A DNA stretch of 64,000 bases from Alphaproteobacteria bacterium (GCA_021296325.1 JAGWAR010000003.1:5796-69795); one strand, 5' to 3'; positions 1,163-5,205 are shown, counted from the first letter of the stretch. Translations and numbers: made by a program. The notes: generated by a model not told the origin, from the sequence alone.

Positions 1163-1732
1163 CTAAGCCGATAGCTCTTCGTATTGTTTTACGAATTCAC
1201 CAGCCAGCGAACGCAACACCAGCTTGATCTGGGTCAGGATTTTCTCGCCCTCGCCGTCCGTCGTCATCTTGGCGTAATTCGATCCGAAGGAACTTATCCA
1301 AGGTCCGGGCGATTCTTTGATATGAACGGAGATGATGTTTTTGGCACCGTCCGCCTCGACCATGACCGCCAAGGCAACGTCACAGATCGATTCGGCCATG
1401 AAAACACCGTAGGCGTGACATTTGCCGGAAAATTTCTGTAGTTGCATCGAGGTAATGGTCGCACCTTGCGGCATCGCGGCAAGCAAATGCCCAAGGAGAT
1501 AATCACCGATGGAAATCGTGTGGTATTTGTTCGAAAGGTTGTCGGACATGTATTCGAAGGTGGCATTGCCAAACGTGGAACGGTCCGCCATCGAGATCTT
1601 ATCCATCATCGGAGCGGCGCCCGGCACCTGCTGCGCCGTCGGTTGTGGAATGTTGACCTGGGTCGCCCGGCCGCAACCAACGAGAGCCGTGGCCAAAACG
1701 AGGACCGCCAAAAGTCTGCTGTAATTTTTCAT
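1163..1732 (-). CDS. Lipoprotein of unknown function (189 aa), lower GC than surroundings
   Basis: Signal peptide with lipobox LVGC (MKNYSRLLAVLVLATALVGCG). No recognisable catalytic motifs. GC is roughly 55% against about 64% locally. Confidence 0.55.
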   Translation of the reverse strand: MKNYSRLLAVLVLATALVGCGRATQVNIPQPTAQQVPGAAPMMDKISMADRSTFGNATFEYMSDNLSNKYHTISIGDYLLGHLLAAMPQGATITSMQLQKFSGKCHAYGVFMAESICDVALAVMVEADGAKNIISVHIKESPGPWISSFGSNYAKMTTDGEGEKILTQIKLVLRSLAGEFVKQYEELSA

Positions 1733-1889
1733 TTCCCCCCCGTGCGAATGCCGAATCGGGGTAAACGGCCCCGATCATCAAGCAGATTTGCCAGTCTAGC
1801 TGCGAATCGCGGCCAGGAGAACCCACCTTGTACCCGATCCGGGAGGACAAAACGCGCGTTCGGTGGCATATTTTTCTAAGGGTAGCCCG

Positions 1890-2099
1890 ATGACCGAAAC
1901 CGCATCCACCATCACCTGCCCGGAATGCGGGCACACAAAGACCGAGGCGATGCCGACGGAGGCTTGCGTCTATTTCTACGAATGCGGAACCTGCGGCGCG
2001 CTTCTGAAGCCAAGGAAGGGGGATTGTTGCGTCTTTTGTTCCTATGGGTCCGTCCCCTGCCCGCCCGTCCAGGAAGCCCGGGCCGGGCGGGAGACCTAG
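1890..2099 (+). CDS. GDCCVxC-domain small cysteine-rich protein (69 aa from ATG 1890; track ORF starts at an upstream GTG, 1863)
   Basis: MTETASTITCPECGH...CVYFYECGTCGALLKPRKGDCCVFCSYGSVPCP has ten Cys including the GDCCVFC signature of the GDCCVxC (seleno)protein family. An SD-like AAGGG lies 8 nt upstream of ATG 1890. Confidence 0.65.
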   Translation: MTETASTITCPECGHTKTEAMPTEACVYFYECGTCGALLKPRKGDCCVFCSYGSVPCPPVQEARAGRET

Positions 2100-2312
2100 G
2101 CGCCAAGGACGGCGAGCGCCGGTTTGGGGTGCCTTTAGCTCTTTCTTAAGGCGCATACGGTAGTAACTGCAGACGGAGAAGTGGGCCATTTGAAGGGGAC
2201 ACTCGACCGTGCATACGCCGATGAAAAGCGAGAAGGCATTCCTCTGCACGCCCGCGGCCAAGAGGCCGTCGGCGAGAAGGATGGGCTGCGCCCATCCTTC
2301 GGGGGGTGCCCG

Positions 2313-3632
2313 GTGACTCCCTACGAAATCCTGCAACTTCTTCGCAAGCATGAGAAATGGCTTGCCGGCAAGGCCGATGGCGAGCGCGCGGATCTGAGCC
2401 AGGCCGATCTGTCGGGCCTGGACCTTTCCAAGGCGGATCTGCGGAAGGCGCGCATGAATGGCGCCGTTCTCAAAAACTGCAACCTGACCGGCGCCAATCT
2501 GGAAGGCGCCAGCCTCTACGCGGCGAATCTGTCCGACTGCATCCTGAGAAAGGCGAACCTCACGAAGGCCGATTTACATGGCGTCGATCTCAAGAAAGCC
2601 GACTTGACCGAGGCCAATCTGGAAGGCGCCGACCTGCGGGAGGGCCGGATGTTCGACATGAGCTAGGGGGACGGCTGGAAAGCCGTCGGCAGCAACCTCG
2701 GGCAATCCGTCCTGAACGGCGCTATTTTGAAAAACGTCAACCTCACCCGCGCTAACATGAAAAAGGTGTCCGCCCTGGATGCCGACATGTCGGGCGCGAC
2801 GCTGGTGGGCGTCAAACTTCAGGAATCGGATCTGAAAGGCGCCAATCTAAGCAATTCAAACCTTGCAGGCGCCAATCTCGGGAATACGGACCTGTCCAAC
2901 TGCAATTTCGACGCGGCCAATCTCACCCGTGCCAACGTGGCAGGCGCAAACCTTGCCAACGCCAATCTGGAAACGGCGAACCTGATGGACGTGGAGATGG
3001 CGCTTTCCCATGTGAAGAACGCCAAGCTTCCGCGCACGCCCCCGAAGGGCAAGCGGCCGATCCAGGTTGTGCTGGAGGACCATTTGCGCTGGATCGAAAC
3101 CCGGGGCAAGGAAGGCGAACGGGCCAATTGCGACGGCTACGACCTTACCAATCTGGACCTTTCCGGCATCGACCTCAGCGGCGCCAGCATGAAAGGGGCC
3201 GACCTGTCTCGCGCCGATCTTCACGGCTGCACGTTCGAGCTTTCCGACCTGTCCCGCGCCACGCTTCAGAACACGAATCTGGAAGGCGTGAACATGGCCG
3301 GGACAAACCTGACGGAGGCCGACCTGACCGGCGCCAATTTTCATGGGGCGCGGCTTGTCTCGGTCGAGCTTCGCGACCAGGCGGGGCGCTCCACGGGACG
3401 AATGTGGCCCACCAATTTGAGCCGGGCGGCCCTGCTGGGCGCCTGCCTCGCGGAATCGGACCTGACGGGGGCCAACCTGCGCGGGGCCGATCTGCGCGGG
3501 GCCGATCTGCGCGGGGCCAACATGGCCGGGGCGGCCGTGGAAGGCGCCAATCTGGAGGGCGTGCAGTTCAAGGGCGTCATCGCCTTCGACGGCGTGATCG
3601 AGGACGTCGCAAAGCAAAAGCGGGCGGGTTAA
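2313..3632 (+). pseudogene. Pentapeptide-repeat protein paralogue 1 (PRP1), interrupted by an in-frame TAG at 2664-2666; otherwise a 439-codon frame
   Basis: Track ORFs 2181..2666 and 2727..3632 are in the same frame, separated only by one amber codon (..LREGRMFDMS*GDGWKAVGSNLGQS..). The start is placed at GTG 2313 by homology: (M)TPYEILQLLRKHEKWLAGK aligns with MSPKDIIRLLRKHERWLQGK (PRP2) and MSPHEIIRLLRKHEQWLQGK (PRP3). The body is A(D/N)LxG-type pentapeptide repeats. Confidence 0.7.
3477..3521 (+). repeat. Three tandem 15-bp units (ctgcgcggggccgat x2, ctgcgcggggccaac) inside PRP1 encoding (L)RGAD repeats
   Basis: Read directly: ..ctgcgcggggccgatctgcgcggggccgatctgcgcggggccaac.. translated GANLRGADLRGADLRGANMAG. 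Confidence 0.8.
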
Positions 3633-3660: not shown

Positions 3661-3920
3661 CCGATTTCCATAAAATTTTTCGAAAATTTGATTCCCTCTT
3701 GCCAGGGAACGGCGTCGATTGGCCGTTTCGCTGAACTATTTCGTTAAAGCAAAAAATTTTATCTAAATTCAAAACAAATTCTAACCAAATCCGAATCGAA
3801 AATTATTGAAAGCTTTATTCGATTTAAGGTTTCTTCTCGTTAAGTGAGAAGGAGTGGGCACGAGGCAAACACGGTTTCCTTTCTGTTAAGCGAATTAGGA
3901 AGATCGCTTTTTTCGAAGGT
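3661..3920 (+). promoter_or_regulatory. AT-rich (~40% GC) 260-bp spacer between PRP1 and PRP2: probable regulated promoter or curved-DNA region
   Basis: Strong compositional contrast with the 64% GC flanks. It contains A-tracts (aaagcaaaaaattttatctaaattcaaaacaaattctaacc), direct repeats ttcgaaaat / atcgaaaatt and tctcgttaagtga / tctgttaagcga. The only ORFs are short overlapping ones with no support. Confidence 0.4.
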
Positions 3921-3941
3921 ATGGAACCAAGTAGGTGTGAC

Positions 3942-5205
3942 ATGTCTCCAAAGGACATCATACGGCTGCTGCGAAAGCACGAAAGGTGGCTACAAGGCAA
4001 GGTCGGCGGCGTACAGGCCAACCTTTCGAACATGAACCTAACCGGGTTGGATTTTTCCTATTCCAACCTGAGTCAGGCCGAGCTTAACAGCACCAACCTC
4101 AAGCGCAGCAATTTGAACGGCGCCAACCTTTCGGGTGCGCATCTGCCGGCGGCCGACCTTTCGCTCGCCAATCTGATTCACGCGGACTTCACCGGCGCAC
4201 ACATGCAAGGCGTCAACCTGCACAAGGCCGTTCTCAAGCGCGCCAAGCTTGAGCTTGCGGATTTGCGGGAAGGCCGCGTTGCCGCCTGGAGCGAATCCGG
4301 CGACTGGAAAGCCATGTCCATCGCGGCCGATCTCAGCAACGCCGTCTTCGACGAGGGCGAACTGACCGATGCCAATTTGAGCGGCGCTGATATGCGCGGA
4401 AGTTCAGGCAAGGACGCCAACCTCTCCGGCACCATCCTTACCGGTGCAAAACTGGACAACGCCGATTGGAAAAAGGCGAACCTGACCCAGGCCAACCTTA
4501 CGGACGCAAGGCTTGTGGAAGCGAATTTCGCCGGCAGCAATTTCAACGCGGCGACCCTTGTCCGGGCCGACGTTCACGGAACCGATTTTTCGAACGCCAT
4601 CCTCGATACCGCCAATCTCGAGGATGCGCCGATCGAATTCGCAAAACTGCAAGGCGCAAAGCTTCCGGCGTCATTCAAGAAGCGGGCCAAGCCGCTGCAG
4701 AACGTCCTCAGGGATCATCAGCGCTGGATCGAAACCCGGGGAAGAACCGGCGAACGGGCCATGCTGGACGGCTATGATCTGAGCGGCCAGAACCTGTCCG
4801 GCATCGATATGAGCGGCGCCAGCCTCCGCGGGGCGGACCTTTCCGAGGAGGATCTAAGCACCGGCACCTTCGAATTAACAGACTATTCTTACGAATATGG
4901 AAGGCGCGCGGCTTGCCGGCGCCAATCTTCTGGAGGCCAATTTAAGCGGGGCAAACCTTCACAACGCCCAGCTGATTTCGATCGAGCTTCGGGATTCCAT
5001 CGGCAAGCGTACGGGACGGATGTGGCCGTCCAACCTTACGCGCGCAACGCTGATCAATACCCGGCTGGCAGGCGCCAATCTTACAGAAGCCAACCTGACC
5101 GATGCCAATATGCACGGCGCAGATCTTGACGGCGTGACTTTTGCCGGAGCGGGCATCCGCGTGGCTCCGGCAGAGCCGGAAGGCTACGGAAATTCGGCCT
5201 CGTGA
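3942..5205 (+). pseudogene. Pentapeptide-repeat protein paralogue 2 (PRP2), frameshifted near 4875-4895 by a ~17-nt deletion relative to PRP1 and PRP3
   Basis: N-terminus MSPKDIIRLLRKHERWLQGK from ATG 3942. In-frame translation degenerates into Arg/Gln-rich nonsense after ..FELTDYSYEY. The +1 frame (track ORF 4897..5205) resumes the paralogous sequence NMEGARLAGANL...VELRDSIGKRTGRMWPSNLTRATL. Nucleotide alignment with PRP1 and PRP3 shows 40 nt here where they have 57 nt. Confidence 0.65.

What the first reader, a model, noticed from the sequence alone, without database searches (positions are those of the whole stretch)
1863..2099. GDCCVxC-type cysteine-rich mini-protein heads the PRP array
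The 69-aa product (CPECGH...CVYFYECGTCG...GDCCVFCSYGSVPCP) has ten cysteines arranged like paired zinc-ribbon knuckles and the GDCCVxC signature. That family is small and functionally uncharacterised. Its presence 210 nt upstream of PRP1 and co-directional with it suggests a functional link (metal/redox-sensing partner?). No selenocysteine, TGA or SECIS is evident here.
Basis: partly seen in the sequence, partly recalled or inferred. Interest (0 to 1): 0.5.

Follow-up and report, generated by a model that had tools for sequence, protein, structure and literature searches.

The report
Orphan mercury-operon-type cysteine mini-protein gene
The small cysteine-rich gene is real and belongs to a large, catalogued but untested protein family that normally sits at the end of mercury-uptake gene cassettes, so its position next to the pentapeptide-repeat genes here looks like inherited gene order in one lineage, not a working partnership.

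Summary
The ORF is real. It runs ATG 1890 to TAG 2099 on the + strand (69 aa). The GTG at 1863 is not a conserved start. It scores 106 bits against NCBIfam NF041374 (GDCCVxC; cutoff 40) and is under purifying selection (dN/dS about 0.15-0.18).

The proposed PRP link is not supported. GD-PRP adjacency occurs only in four or five collinear genomes of one alphaproteobacterial lineage. It appears in 1 of 80 other species, 2.9 kb away.

Instead, 51 of 79 loci place the gene last in a merR-merT/merF-(merP)-GD cassette, usually without merA. The domain is also fused to MerT, MerC and an NmerA-like HMA domain. Selenocysteine variants read GDCUVFC, and 86% of members end in a Cys pair.

Best reading (inferred, untested): a cytosolic zinc-ribbon plus thiolate-cluster protein that accepts Hg(II) or another soft metal from Mer importers.

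The window copy is a Cys-form orphan. No mer gene lies in the 64 kb, and it has lost the C-terminal Cys pair that its closest relatives keep.

It is an ordinary new member of a known family. The family-level mer link is the more interesting result.

The parts
1890..2099 (+). GDCCVxC-family CDS (69 aa plus TAG stop)
   Evidence: NF041374 at 106 bits against a cutoff of 40. The ATG start is conserved in relatives. dN/dS 0.15-0.18.
1878..1882 (+). Shine-Dalgarno-like AAGGG, 7 nt before the ATG
   Evidence: Read directly from the sequence. AAGGA/AGGGA occupies the equivalent place in L002/L003. Inference only.
1917..1994 (+). Zinc-ribbon half: knuckle C10-P-E-C13 (1917-1928), invariant C26 (1965-1967), knuckle C32-G-T-C35 (1983-1994)
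2019..2039 (+). Signature GDCCVFC (G44-C50). C47 (TGC, 2028-2030) is the position that is selenocysteine (TGA) in some orthologues
   Evidence: Sequence. GDCUVFC orthologues keep the family signature in frame after the TGA.
2058..2069 (+). Invariant C57-P-P-x motif (CPPV)
   Evidence: Invariant C57, P59 and Q61.
2073..2096 (+). C-terminal tail EARAGRET, lacking the Cys pair found in 86% of family members
   Evidence: GGG CGG here against TGT TGC in L001-L003; L091 ends GCGC. 68 of 79 species loci have CC or CxC in the tail.
2100..2312 (+). 213-nt spacer to PRP1, with a conserved non-coding block at about 2132-2185 (CCTTTAGCTCTTTCTTAAGG...) and the PRP1 ribosome-binding site GGGGGGTG
   Evidence: The block is conserved in L002, L003 and L091 although spacer length varies from 167 to 264 nt. 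No conserved terminator. No Rfam match.
2313..3632 (+). PRP1 (context, not part of the GD unit), interrupted by amber TAG at 2664-2666
   Evidence: Translation and comparison with the intact 442-448-aa orthologues; CAA in the relatives.
1163..1732 (-). Divergently transcribed 189-aa predicted lipoprotein (context), syntenic in relatives
   Evidence: ORF. The same 189/190-aa gene is in L002, L003 and L091. Only a weak lipoprotein-signal-like match.

Best explanation
The gene encodes a small cytosolic metal-thiolate protein of the GDCCVxC family (NCBIfam NF041374).

Shown:
- It is a bona fide, selectively maintained member of that family.
- Across bacteria the family is the terminal gene of mercury-uptake cassettes (merR, then merT or merF, optionally merP, then GD), usually without merA.
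- The domain also occurs fused to the cytoplasmic end of MerT- and MerC-type importers and to an NmerA-like HMA domain.
- Its second Cys of the CC dipeptide can be selenocysteine.

Inferred mechanism: the N-terminal half (C10, C13, C32, C35) is a structural zinc ribbon. The remaining invariant thiols (C26, C46, C47, C50, C57), helped in most members by a flexible C-terminal Cys pair, bind Hg(II) or another thiophilic metal as it leaves the importer. The protein then buffers the metal or relays it to a reductase or to cellular thiols. This is functionally analogous to NmerA or to the C-terminal Cys pair of MerF and MerA.

The window copy is the Cys form, stands alone (no mer gene in the 64 kb), and has recently lost the C-terminal Cys pair. 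Here it most likely acts as a stand-alone soft-metal-binding protein, or as a partner of mer genes elsewhere in the genome. Its position upstream of the PRP genes is lineage-specific synteny and not a functional coupling.
For: Membership: 106 bits against a cutoff of 40, with all invariant residues present.

Selection: dN/dS 0.15-0.18.

mer linkage:
- 51 of 79 species loci have mer genes within 2.2 kb upstream. In 49 of them MerT, MerF or MerP lies within that 2.2 kb; in nearly all of the architectures listed these genes are co-directional with GD, with GD downstream of them. The commonest architectures are <MerR MerT> GD> (15 loci) and <MerR MerT> MerP> GD> (12 loci).
- Neighbours pass the NCBIfam equivalog cutoffs for MerP (99 against 92.55) and MerF (89.7 against 50). 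The MerR neighbours score best to Hg-type MerR.
- RefSeq annotation of plasmids shows Hg(II)-responsive MerR, then MerT, MerP and GD.
- The closest homologue outside the window's lineage lies in merR-merT-merP-GD.
- The cassette is mobile. It is found on prophage-like contigs and in a Tn3-family transposon on many plasmids.

Fusions: NmerA-like HMA + GD (L008), MerT + GD (P0246, P0318) and MerC + GD (P0340).

Selenocysteine forms: GDCUVFC is found in metagenomes, and these forms are also mer-linked. The CU dipeptide is rare and has been associated with heavy-metal chemistry (bioRxiv 10.1101/2022.07.06.499078).

C-terminal Cys pair: present in 68 of 79 loci, reminiscent of the C-terminal CC of MerA (established knowledge).

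No separate orphan subfamily: orphans and mer-linked members are interleaved by sequence; 17 of 28 orphans have a mer-linked nearest neighbour.
Against: - No biochemical data exist for any member.
- The window has no mer gene within 64 kb, and its copy lacks the tail Cys pair. The mer-based mechanism is therefore transferred from homologues.
- 28 of 79 loci are orphans in unrelated contexts, so a mer-independent role must exist or the proteins act in trans.
- The MerR and MerT neighbours fall below the NCBIfam equivalog cutoffs, so metal specificity is not proven.
- A transposon module matching merR-merT-merP-GD (Tn5563a) lowered Hg MICs at least 2-fold in six strains and raised them in only two (PMC4447125). 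This argues against simple protective sequestration.
- The AF2 model is only moderately confident (pLDDT 65; about 50 for the C-terminal half), so the proposed second metal site is not structurally supported.
Confidence: 0.6

Rival explanations
1. One reading: the mini-protein is a metal- or redox-sensing partner of the downstream pentapeptide-repeat proteins and heads their operon.
For: It is co-directional with PRP1, 213 nt upstream. The adjacency is kept in L002, L003 and L091. No convincing terminator lies between the two genes. One family member is fused to a PAS-GGDEF signalling protein, so sensor-type use of the domain exists.
Against: - The adjacency is confined to one collinear lineage.
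- A PRP lies near GD in 1 of 80 other species, and no pentapeptide family is enriched among the neighbours.
- PRPs of similar size elsewhere lack a GD gene.
- An IS1595 insertion separates the two in L001.
- The spacer carries its own conserved block and ribosome-binding site.
- PRP1 and PRP2 are disrupted in the window while GD is intact.
Confidence: 0.07
2. The protein is a redox-active thiol/selenol protein. The CC/CU dipeptide would serve as a catalytic redox centre, for example reducing or resolving Hg-thiol adducts or disulfides, possibly as the substrate-carrying partner of a MerA-like flavoprotein. On this reading it is not a passive metal acceptor.
For: Cys/Sec interchange at one position is a classic mark of redox-active cysteines (established knowledge). 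In 7 of 80 loci a class-I flavoprotein disulfide reductase sits next to GD. It has the active site GGTCALRGCDPKK, has no C-terminal Cys pair, and falls below every NCBIfam cutoff (MerA 297-299 against 454). In one archaeal locus a glutaredoxin-like gene lies upstream.
Against: Most loci (about 90%) have no reductase nearby. Fusion partners are metal transporters or an HMA domain, not redox enzymes. There is no thioredoxin-like fold.
Confidence: 0.15
3. The protein is a small zinc-ribbon regulator: a MerD-like co-regulator, or an anti-activator that binds DNA, RNA or MerR.
For: It occupies the distal position in the mer operon, as merD does in Tn21/Tn501 (established knowledge). Zinc ribbons often bind nucleic acids, and the only sequence and fold matches are to TFIIS- and ZitP-type zinc fingers.
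Against: There is no similarity to MerD or to any HTH protein. Covalent fusion to the membrane transporters MerT and MerC is hard to reconcile with a DNA-binding regulator. Five extra invariant Cys, a Sec variant and a terminal CC pair point to metal chemistry.
Confidence: 0.1
4. In this genome the gene is a decaying remnant of a lost mer cassette with no current function.
For: No mer genes lie in the 64 kb. The conserved C-terminal Cys pair was lost through four nucleotide changes. The neighbouring PRP1 and PRP2 are disrupted, and IS elements flank the gene in L001.
Against: The ORF is intact with all invariant core residues. dN/dS is 0.15-0.18 at dS of about 0.8-0.9, so the gene has been maintained through long divergence in the same orphan context. 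A few other members also lack tail cysteines.
Confidence: 0.08

Closest known systems
NCBIfam NF041374, GDCCVxC domain-containing (seleno)protein (e.g. WP_003089113.1 on Pseudomonas/Klebsiella plasmids)
   Same: Full-length profile match (106 bits against a cutoff of 40). Same nine invariant Cys, the GDCCVFC motif and the CPPxQ motif. About 63% identity to the plasmid allele.
   Different: The window copy lacks the C-terminal Cys pair and is not next to any mer gene. The plasmid allele follows merR-merT-merP.
NmerA, the N-terminal HMA metallochaperone domain of mercuric reductase MerA
   Same: Proposed role: a small cytosolic domain that takes Hg(II) from the inner-membrane importer and passes it on. 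GD occupies the post-merP position where merA normally lies. It is fused to an NmerA-like domain in L008.
   Different: Unrelated sequence and fold. NmerA has a ferredoxin-like beta-alpha-beta-beta-alpha-beta fold with one GMTCxxC site, whereas GD has a zinc ribbon plus a five-Cys cluster. No homology was detected.
C-terminal cysteine pairs of MerF/MerT and of MerA (Hg(II) hand-off sites)
   Same: A flexible terminal CC dipeptide is present in 86% of GD proteins. In fusions the GD domain is attached exactly at the cytoplasmic C-terminus of MerT/MerF-like and MerC proteins.
   Different: GD is a soluble protein with its own folded core. The window copy has no terminal Cys at all.
Bacterial metallothioneins (SmtA/BmtA type) and engineered merT-merP + metallothionein bioaccumulation systems
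   Same: A small Cys-rich cytosolic protein downstream of Hg importers could act as an intracellular sink.
   Different: There is no sequence relationship. The published Tn5563a module, which matches merRTP-GD, mostly increased Hg sensitivity (PMC4447125). That is not what a protective sink would do.
TFIIS/RPB9-type and ZitP-type zinc ribbons
   Different: The scores are marginal. The C-terminal GDCCVxC...CPP half has no counterpart in those proteins.
Other Cys/Sec heavy-metal proteins catalogued by NCBIfam (NF041115 UxxU metal-binding (seleno)protein; NF045683 MerT/CopZ fusion-like selenoprotein)
   Same: Cys/Sec interchange at a metal-ligand position in mer-type transport contexts. A CU dipeptide, as in the MerT-family selenoproteins discussed in bioRxiv 10.1101/2022.07.06.499078.
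   Different: Different folds and families. The window protein matches neither model.

Membership tests
NCBIfam NF041374 GDCCVxC domain-containing (seleno)protein | HMM score above the curated cutoff (40 bits) over the full 58-position model | tested here: met
   106 bits, E = 8.3e-31, profile positions 1-57 of 58
NCBIfam NF041374 GDCCVxC domain-containing (seleno)protein | GDCCVxC motif plus the invariant Cys set (two CxxC knuckles, C26, C57) and CPPxQ | tested here: met
   All columns that are invariant in 30- and 117-sequence alignments are present in the window protein
NCBIfam NF041374 GDCCVxC domain-containing (seleno)protein | C-terminal Cys pair (common, not universal: 68 of 79 loci) | tested here: not met
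   The tail is EARAGRET. TGT TGC of the relatives is replaced by GGG CGG. This feature is frequent but not defining.
mer (mercury) operon accessory gene | Located in an operon with merT/merF/merC/merP under a MerR regulator | tested here: not met
   No MerT, MerP, MerF or MerA in the 64-kb window; only a weak MerR-family hit 24 kb away (E = 3e-4). The feature is met for 51 of 79 homologous loci.
mer (mercury) operon accessory gene | Binds or transfers Hg(II) | not testable with these tools
   Requires biochemistry. No published data were found.
Selenoprotein | In-frame TGA decoded as Sec, with a SECIS element | tested here: not met
   The CC pair is TGT TGC and the stop is TAG; there is no in-frame TGA. 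Orthologues with TGA at the C47 position exist. SECIS elements in those orthologues were not examined.
Zinc ribbon (TFIIS/rubredoxin-knuckle type) | Two CxxC knuckles on beta-hairpins coordinating one Zn | tested here: inconclusive
HMA/MerP/NmerA metallochaperones | GMxCxxC motif in a beta-alpha-beta-beta-alpha-beta fold (Pfam PF00403) | tested here: not met
   No HMA hit in Pfam or NCBIfam. The resemblance is functional only.
   1 of 80 species. Linkage occurs only in the collinear lineage L001-L003 and L091. Three lineages of PRP homologues lack GD.

The most novel reading that the evidence does not exclude
The 'incomplete' or 'defective' merRTP modules described in the literature (e.g. Tn5563a) may in fact be a distinct, conserved four-gene system, merR-merT/merF-(merP)-GDCCVxC, spread across at least five phyla, plasmids and prophages. 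In it the overlooked GDCCVxC protein would be a new kind of cytosolic Hg(II) acceptor or relay. It uses Cys or Sec and often has a MerA-like terminal Cys pair, and it stands in for NmerA/MerA or feeds an unrecognised MerA-like flavoprotein that lacks its own C-terminal cysteines. Orphan, tail-less copies such as the one in this window would then be a mer-independent derivative that buffers thiophilic metals.
Probability: 0.4. Interest if true: 0.6.

Novelty: new member of a known kind. Interest (0 to 1): 0.35.

Why it matters
For this window the result is mainly corrective. The mini-protein is an ordinary member of a catalogued family, and the PRP array should be interpreted without it.

At family level the work gives an uncharacterised protein a concrete, testable context. 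The protein is present in thousands of genomes and in hundreds of plasmids, including clinical Klebsiella and Pseudomonas plasmids. It is the conserved last gene of merA-less mercury-transport cassettes that published papers describe as 'merRTP only' and puzzlingly widespread (PMC4447125, PMC10488154). If it is an Hg(II) acceptor or relay, that would explain why such cassettes persist. It would also add a component to the mer paradigm, including a selenocysteine variant.

Tried and rejected
- GTG 1863 as the start codon: rejected, because it is out of frame with the ATG in L002/L003 and homologues begin at the ATG-equivalent Met.
- Read-through of the TAG stop to recover a Cys-containing tail: it would add 12 aa with one Cys and is not conserved, so rejected.
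- Pfam: no family.
- PDB sequence profile: only marginal zinc-ribbon hits.
- Intrinsic terminator after GD: the scan found none on the + strand. The window has a hairpin at 2098-2134, but its energy is not better than shuffles (z = -1.2) and no equivalent hairpin folds in L002, L003 or L091. Rejected.
- Rfam on 1600-2500: nothing.
- MerR-type operator upstream of GD: the inverted-repeat search gave no convincing dyad in 1733-1889.
- Phage genome collection: no match, although prophage-like metagenome contigs do carry merT-merP-GD.
- Reciprocal PRP test: the PRP3 search was dominated by repeat-driven hits (37% identity or less) and did not return clean orthologues. The three contexts examined are therefore PRPs of similar size, not proven orthologues.
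- The canonical MerA active-site pattern found no MerA in the 80 loci. A relaxed pattern found a MerA-like reductase in seven.
- Tail-Cys loss as a correlate of orphan status: rejected, because 28 of 32 orphans keep the pair.
- Literature: no paper names the family or describes a fourth gene in merRTP modules.

Full report
**1. The observation**

The window has an ORF at 1863..2099 on the + strand. The in-frame GTG at 1863 is not a credible start. In the closest relatives the same GTG is out of frame with the ATG, and homologues from many taxa begin at the ATG-equivalent Met. An AAGGG Shine-Dalgarno-like motif lies 7 nt upstream of the ATG.

The protein scores 106 bits (E = 8.3e-31) against NCBIfam NF041374, 'GDCCVxC domain-containing (seleno)protein', whose curated cutoff is 40. 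The match covers the whole model. Pfam has no family for it.

The protein has nine cysteines, not ten: C10, C13, C26, C32, C35, C46, C47, C50 and C57. All nine are invariant in alignments of 30 and 117 homologues, apart from C35, which is nearly invariant (at least 90%) in the 117-sequence alignment. The CC pair is encoded TGT TGC and the stop is TAG, so this copy is not a selenoprotein.

Against orthologues at dS of about 0.8-0.9, dN/dS is 0.15-0.18. The gene is therefore real and under purifying selection. The overlapping 250-aa antisense ORF (1599..2351) is an artefact of the high G+C content.

PRP1 starts at the conserved GTG 2313, so the spacer is 213 nt.

**2. Family size and spread**

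The family is not small. Counts obtained:
- 3,108 clusters at 90% identity.
- 3,054 representatives at 50% identity, of which 1,972 have E of 1e-10 or better.
These include Alpha-, Beta- and Gammaproteobacteria, Acidobacteria, Verrucomicrobia, Bacteroidota and one Thermoplasmata MAG.
- 353 plasmids.

No paper in the searchable library names the family.

**3. Is it linked to the PRPs?**

In the window's own lineage the order is the same throughout: TonB-dependent receptor / 189-aa lipoprotein (minus strand) / GD / three PRPs / GDPD / 104-aa gene / GGDEF-EAL. This holds for L001-L003 (82-85% protein identity) and L091 (76%). The whole block of at least 12 kb is collinear, so the adjacency reflects shared ancestry and is not independent evidence of coupling.

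Outside the lineage the linkage disappears:
- Among 80 other species, a pentapeptide-repeat ORF lies within 6 kb of GD in only one (L043, 2.9 kb away).
- Pfam scans of 94 upstream and 143 downstream neighbours list no Pentapeptide family among the 25 most frequent families.
- The next-closest homologue outside the lineage (P0006, 72% identity, Rhodospirillaceae) lies in merR-merT-merP-GD.
- PRPs of similar size in Ferrovibrio, another alphaproteobacterial group and Stellaceae have no GD gene within 6 kb. Their orthology to the window PRPs is not established, because the PRP3 search was dominated by repeat-driven matches.

Three further points argue against obligatory coupling. In L001 an IS1595 transposase sits between GD and the PRPs. 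The spacer carries its own conserved block and a ribosome-binding site for PRP1. In the window, PRP1 carries an amber codon where relatives have CAA, and PRP2 is frameshifted, while GD is intact.

**4. What the family is linked to**

I searched the 80 species loci with profiles seeded from recognisable MerR, MerT, MerF and MerP neighbours (79 loci were countable). Results:
- 51 of 79 loci have mer genes within 2.2 kb upstream of GD.
- In 49 of these, a Hg(II) importer gene (MerT, MerF or MerP) lies within that 2.2 kb. In nearly all of the architectures listed these genes are co-directional with GD, with GD downstream of them.
- The commonest architectures are <MerR MerT> GD> (15 loci) and <MerR MerT> MerP> GD> (12 loci).
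- 28 loci are orphans, three of them with too little upstream sequence to judge.

The neighbours hold up to curated models. They pass the NCBIfam equivalog cutoffs for MerP (99 against 92.55) and MerF (89.7 against 50). The MerR neighbours score best to Hg-type MerR but fall below its cutoff (134-139 against 150.85). RefSeq annotation on plasmids independently reads 'Hg(II)-responsive transcriptional regulator / MerT / MerP / GDCCVxC'.

Canonical MerA is absent from all 80 loci. Seven loci, in Sphingomonadales and Bacteroidota, carry a MerA-like class-I flavoprotein disulfide reductase next to GD. It has the active site GGTCALRGCDPKK and no C-terminal Cys pair, and it falls below every NCBIfam cutoff.

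The cassette is mobile. merT-merP-GD lies beside terminase and portal genes in metagenomic contigs. One allele is spread over Klebsiella, Enterobacter, Citrobacter, Aeromonas and Pseudomonas plasmids, inside a module reading merR-merT-merP-GD-Tn3 transposase-PIN-RHH-resolvase. That module matches the published description of Tn5563a. Published papers describe Tn5563a as carrying an incomplete or defective 'merRTP' operon without merA, and remark on its surprisingly wide distribution (PMC4447125, PMC10488154). The fourth gene is not mentioned there. The identity of the plasmid module with Tn5563a is my inference from gene content and size; I did not verify it by sequence.

**5. Further anatomy bearing on mechanism**

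- Domain fusions. An NmerA-like HMA domain is fused to GD in an acidobacterial MAG, directly after merR-merT-merP (L008). Two-helix MerT/MerF-like importers carry GD at their C-terminus (P0246, P0318). So does a MerC (P0340; Pfam MerC 42 bits against a cutoff of 27.6). One protein is a PAS-GGDEF-GD fusion (P0358). Attachment to the C-terminus of importers places the domain in the cytoplasm. This rests on the established topology of MerF and MerT.
- Selenocysteine variants. A metagenome scan for GDC-TGA-V(F/Y)C found at least six distinct loci in which the family signature continues in frame after the TGA, for example ...GDCUVFCSYGTVKCPPVQQGNTCC*. Sec therefore replaces the position equivalent to the window's C47. 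Some of these loci are again next to MerR, MerP or MerF. The CU dipeptide is rare among selenoproteins and has been linked to heavy-metal chemistry (bioRxiv 10.1101/2022.07.06.499078).
- C-terminal Cys pair. 68 of 79 members end in a flexible tail with CC or CxC, in both mer-linked and orphan contexts. The window copy has none. Where L001-L003 read GCC TGT TGC GAG, the window reads GCC GGG CGG GAG. L091 ends GCGC. The loss is therefore recent and specific to this genome.
- No orphan subfamily. Orphan and mer-linked members are interleaved by sequence; 17 of 28 orphans have a mer-linked nearest neighbour.

**6. Most likely mechanism**

Shown: family membership, purifying selection, the mer-cassette context of the family, the fusions to importers and to an HMA domain, Cys/Sec interchange at C47, and the frequent terminal Cys pair.

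Inferred: the protein is a cytosolic two-site metal protein. One site is a structural zinc ribbon (C10, C13, C32, C35). The other is a thiolate or selenolate cluster (C26, C46, C47, C50, C57) that receives Hg(II), or another thiophilic ion, from the cytoplasmic face of MerT, MerF or MerC. The tail Cys pair would act as the pick-up arm, as the C-terminal CC of MerA does. The metal would then be buffered or handed on to MerA, to the MerA-like reductase or to low-molecular-weight thiols.

The Tn5563a experiments bear on this. The module lowered Hg MICs at least 2-fold in six strains and raised them in two Pseudomonas strains, for which the authors suggested a chromosomal merA (PMC4447125). This argues against a self-sufficient protective sink and favours a relay or buffer role. 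It is indirect evidence, because those authors did not consider the fourth gene.

For the window copy, which is an orphan without the tail pair and with no mer gene in 64 kb, the biochemical role is probably retained in the core. Its partners are unknown.

I put about 0.6 on this overall statement. The components differ: about 0.98 for family membership, about 0.85 for 'the PRP adjacency is synteny only', and about 0.5-0.55 for the Hg(II)-acceptor mechanism.

**7. Rivals**

See section 3.
- Redox-active thiol/selenol protein, possibly partnered with the adjacent MerA-like flavoprotein, 0.15. Supported by the Cys/Sec interchange and the seven reductase-linked loci.
- MerD-like zinc-ribbon regulator, 0.10. 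Hard to reconcile with fusion to membrane transporters.
- Decaying remnant, 0.08. Contradicted by the dN/dS values and the intact core.

**8. Comparison with what is known, and novelty**

The gene is a member of a known, curated but experimentally uncharacterised family (NF041374), so for the window this is a new member of a known kind. It works like NmerA or the terminal Cys pairs of MerF and MerA, but it is not a member of the HMA family.

I did not find the family-level link to merA-less mercury-transport cassettes in the searchable literature, nor the fusions or the position of the Sec residue. NCBIfam curators may have noted some of this; I could not read the model's description.

**9. 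Verdict**

The family call and the absence of Sec are right. The PRP partnership is not supported.

Interest in the finding as posed is low to moderate (0.35). The more novel reading is that merR-merT/merF-(merP)-GDCCVxC is a distinct mercury-handling system whose fourth component has been overlooked. I give that about 0.4 probability, and it would deserve about 0.6 interest if true.

Noticed in passing
window 2313-3632 (TAG at 2664-2666) and window 3921-5205: PRP1 carries an in-frame amber codon where relatives L002/L003 have CAA (Gln). PRP2 is split between two frames (3921..5129 and 4897..5205). Relatives have three intact PRPs of about 442, 426 and 432 aa. Possible causes: pseudogenisation or assembly errors in this MAG.
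   Followed up: partly
window ~2132-2185 (GD-PRP1 spacer): A non-coding block, CCTTTAGCTCTTTCTTAAGGCG...ACGGAGA, is conserved in L002, L003 and L091 even though the spacer length varies from 167 to 264 nt. It is not a conserved terminator hairpin and has no Rfam match. It may be the PRP1 promoter or operator.
   Followed up: partly
L008 5683-6213; proteins P0246, P0318, P0340, P0358: Domain fusions of the GDCCVxC domain: NmerA-like HMA + GD, MerT/MerF-like two-helix importer + GD, MerC + GD, and a 793-aa PAS-GGDEF protein ending in GD.
   Followed up: partly
L102, L104 (= L129), L110, L123, L126, L178: Selenocysteine forms of the family: GDC-TGA-V(F/Y)C, with the family signature continuing in frame. 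Sec sits at the position of window C47. Some are next to MerR, MerP or MerF. SECIS elements were not examined.
   Followed up: partly
L047, L049, L061, L066, L079 (downstream of GD); L064, L069 (upstream of GD): An unassigned class-I flavoprotein disulfide reductase lies next to GD in Sphingomonadales and Bacteroidota mer-type loci. Its active site is GGTCALRGCDPKK. It has no C-terminal Cys pair and no NmerA domain, and it scores below all NCBIfam cutoffs (MerA 297-299 against 454).
   Followed up: partly
L221 (NZ_MT560066.1) and L222 (NZ_CP073083.1), locus 3861-5192: One GD allele (WP_003089113.1) is spread over many Klebsiella, Enterobacter, Citrobacter, Aeromonas and Pseudomonas plasmids. 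It lies in a Tn3-family module merR-merT-merP-GD-tnpA-PIN-RHH-resolvase that matches published Tn5563a. The literature describes Tn5563a as a 'defective merRTP' operon and does not mention the fourth gene.
   Followed up: partly
L086-L090 (e.g. L086 1961-2946): A merT-merP-GDCCVxC cassette lies in prophage- or phage-like metagenome contigs, beside GpA terminase, portal and ParB-methylase genes. The deposited phage genome collection gave no match.
   Followed up: no
L004 5233-5616; also L006, L038, L075, L048, L011, L071 just downstream of GD: A conserved membrane protein of about 127 aa with several Cys (no Pfam or NCBIfam family) follows GD in several alphaproteobacterial mer-type loci. It may be a further component of the cassette.
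   Followed up: no
L001 3171-4351 and 5333-6352: In one close relative the GD gene is bracketed by IS3-family and IS1595-family transposase genes. The latter is inserted between GD and the PRP array, and the upstream lipoprotein gene is missing.
   Followed up: no
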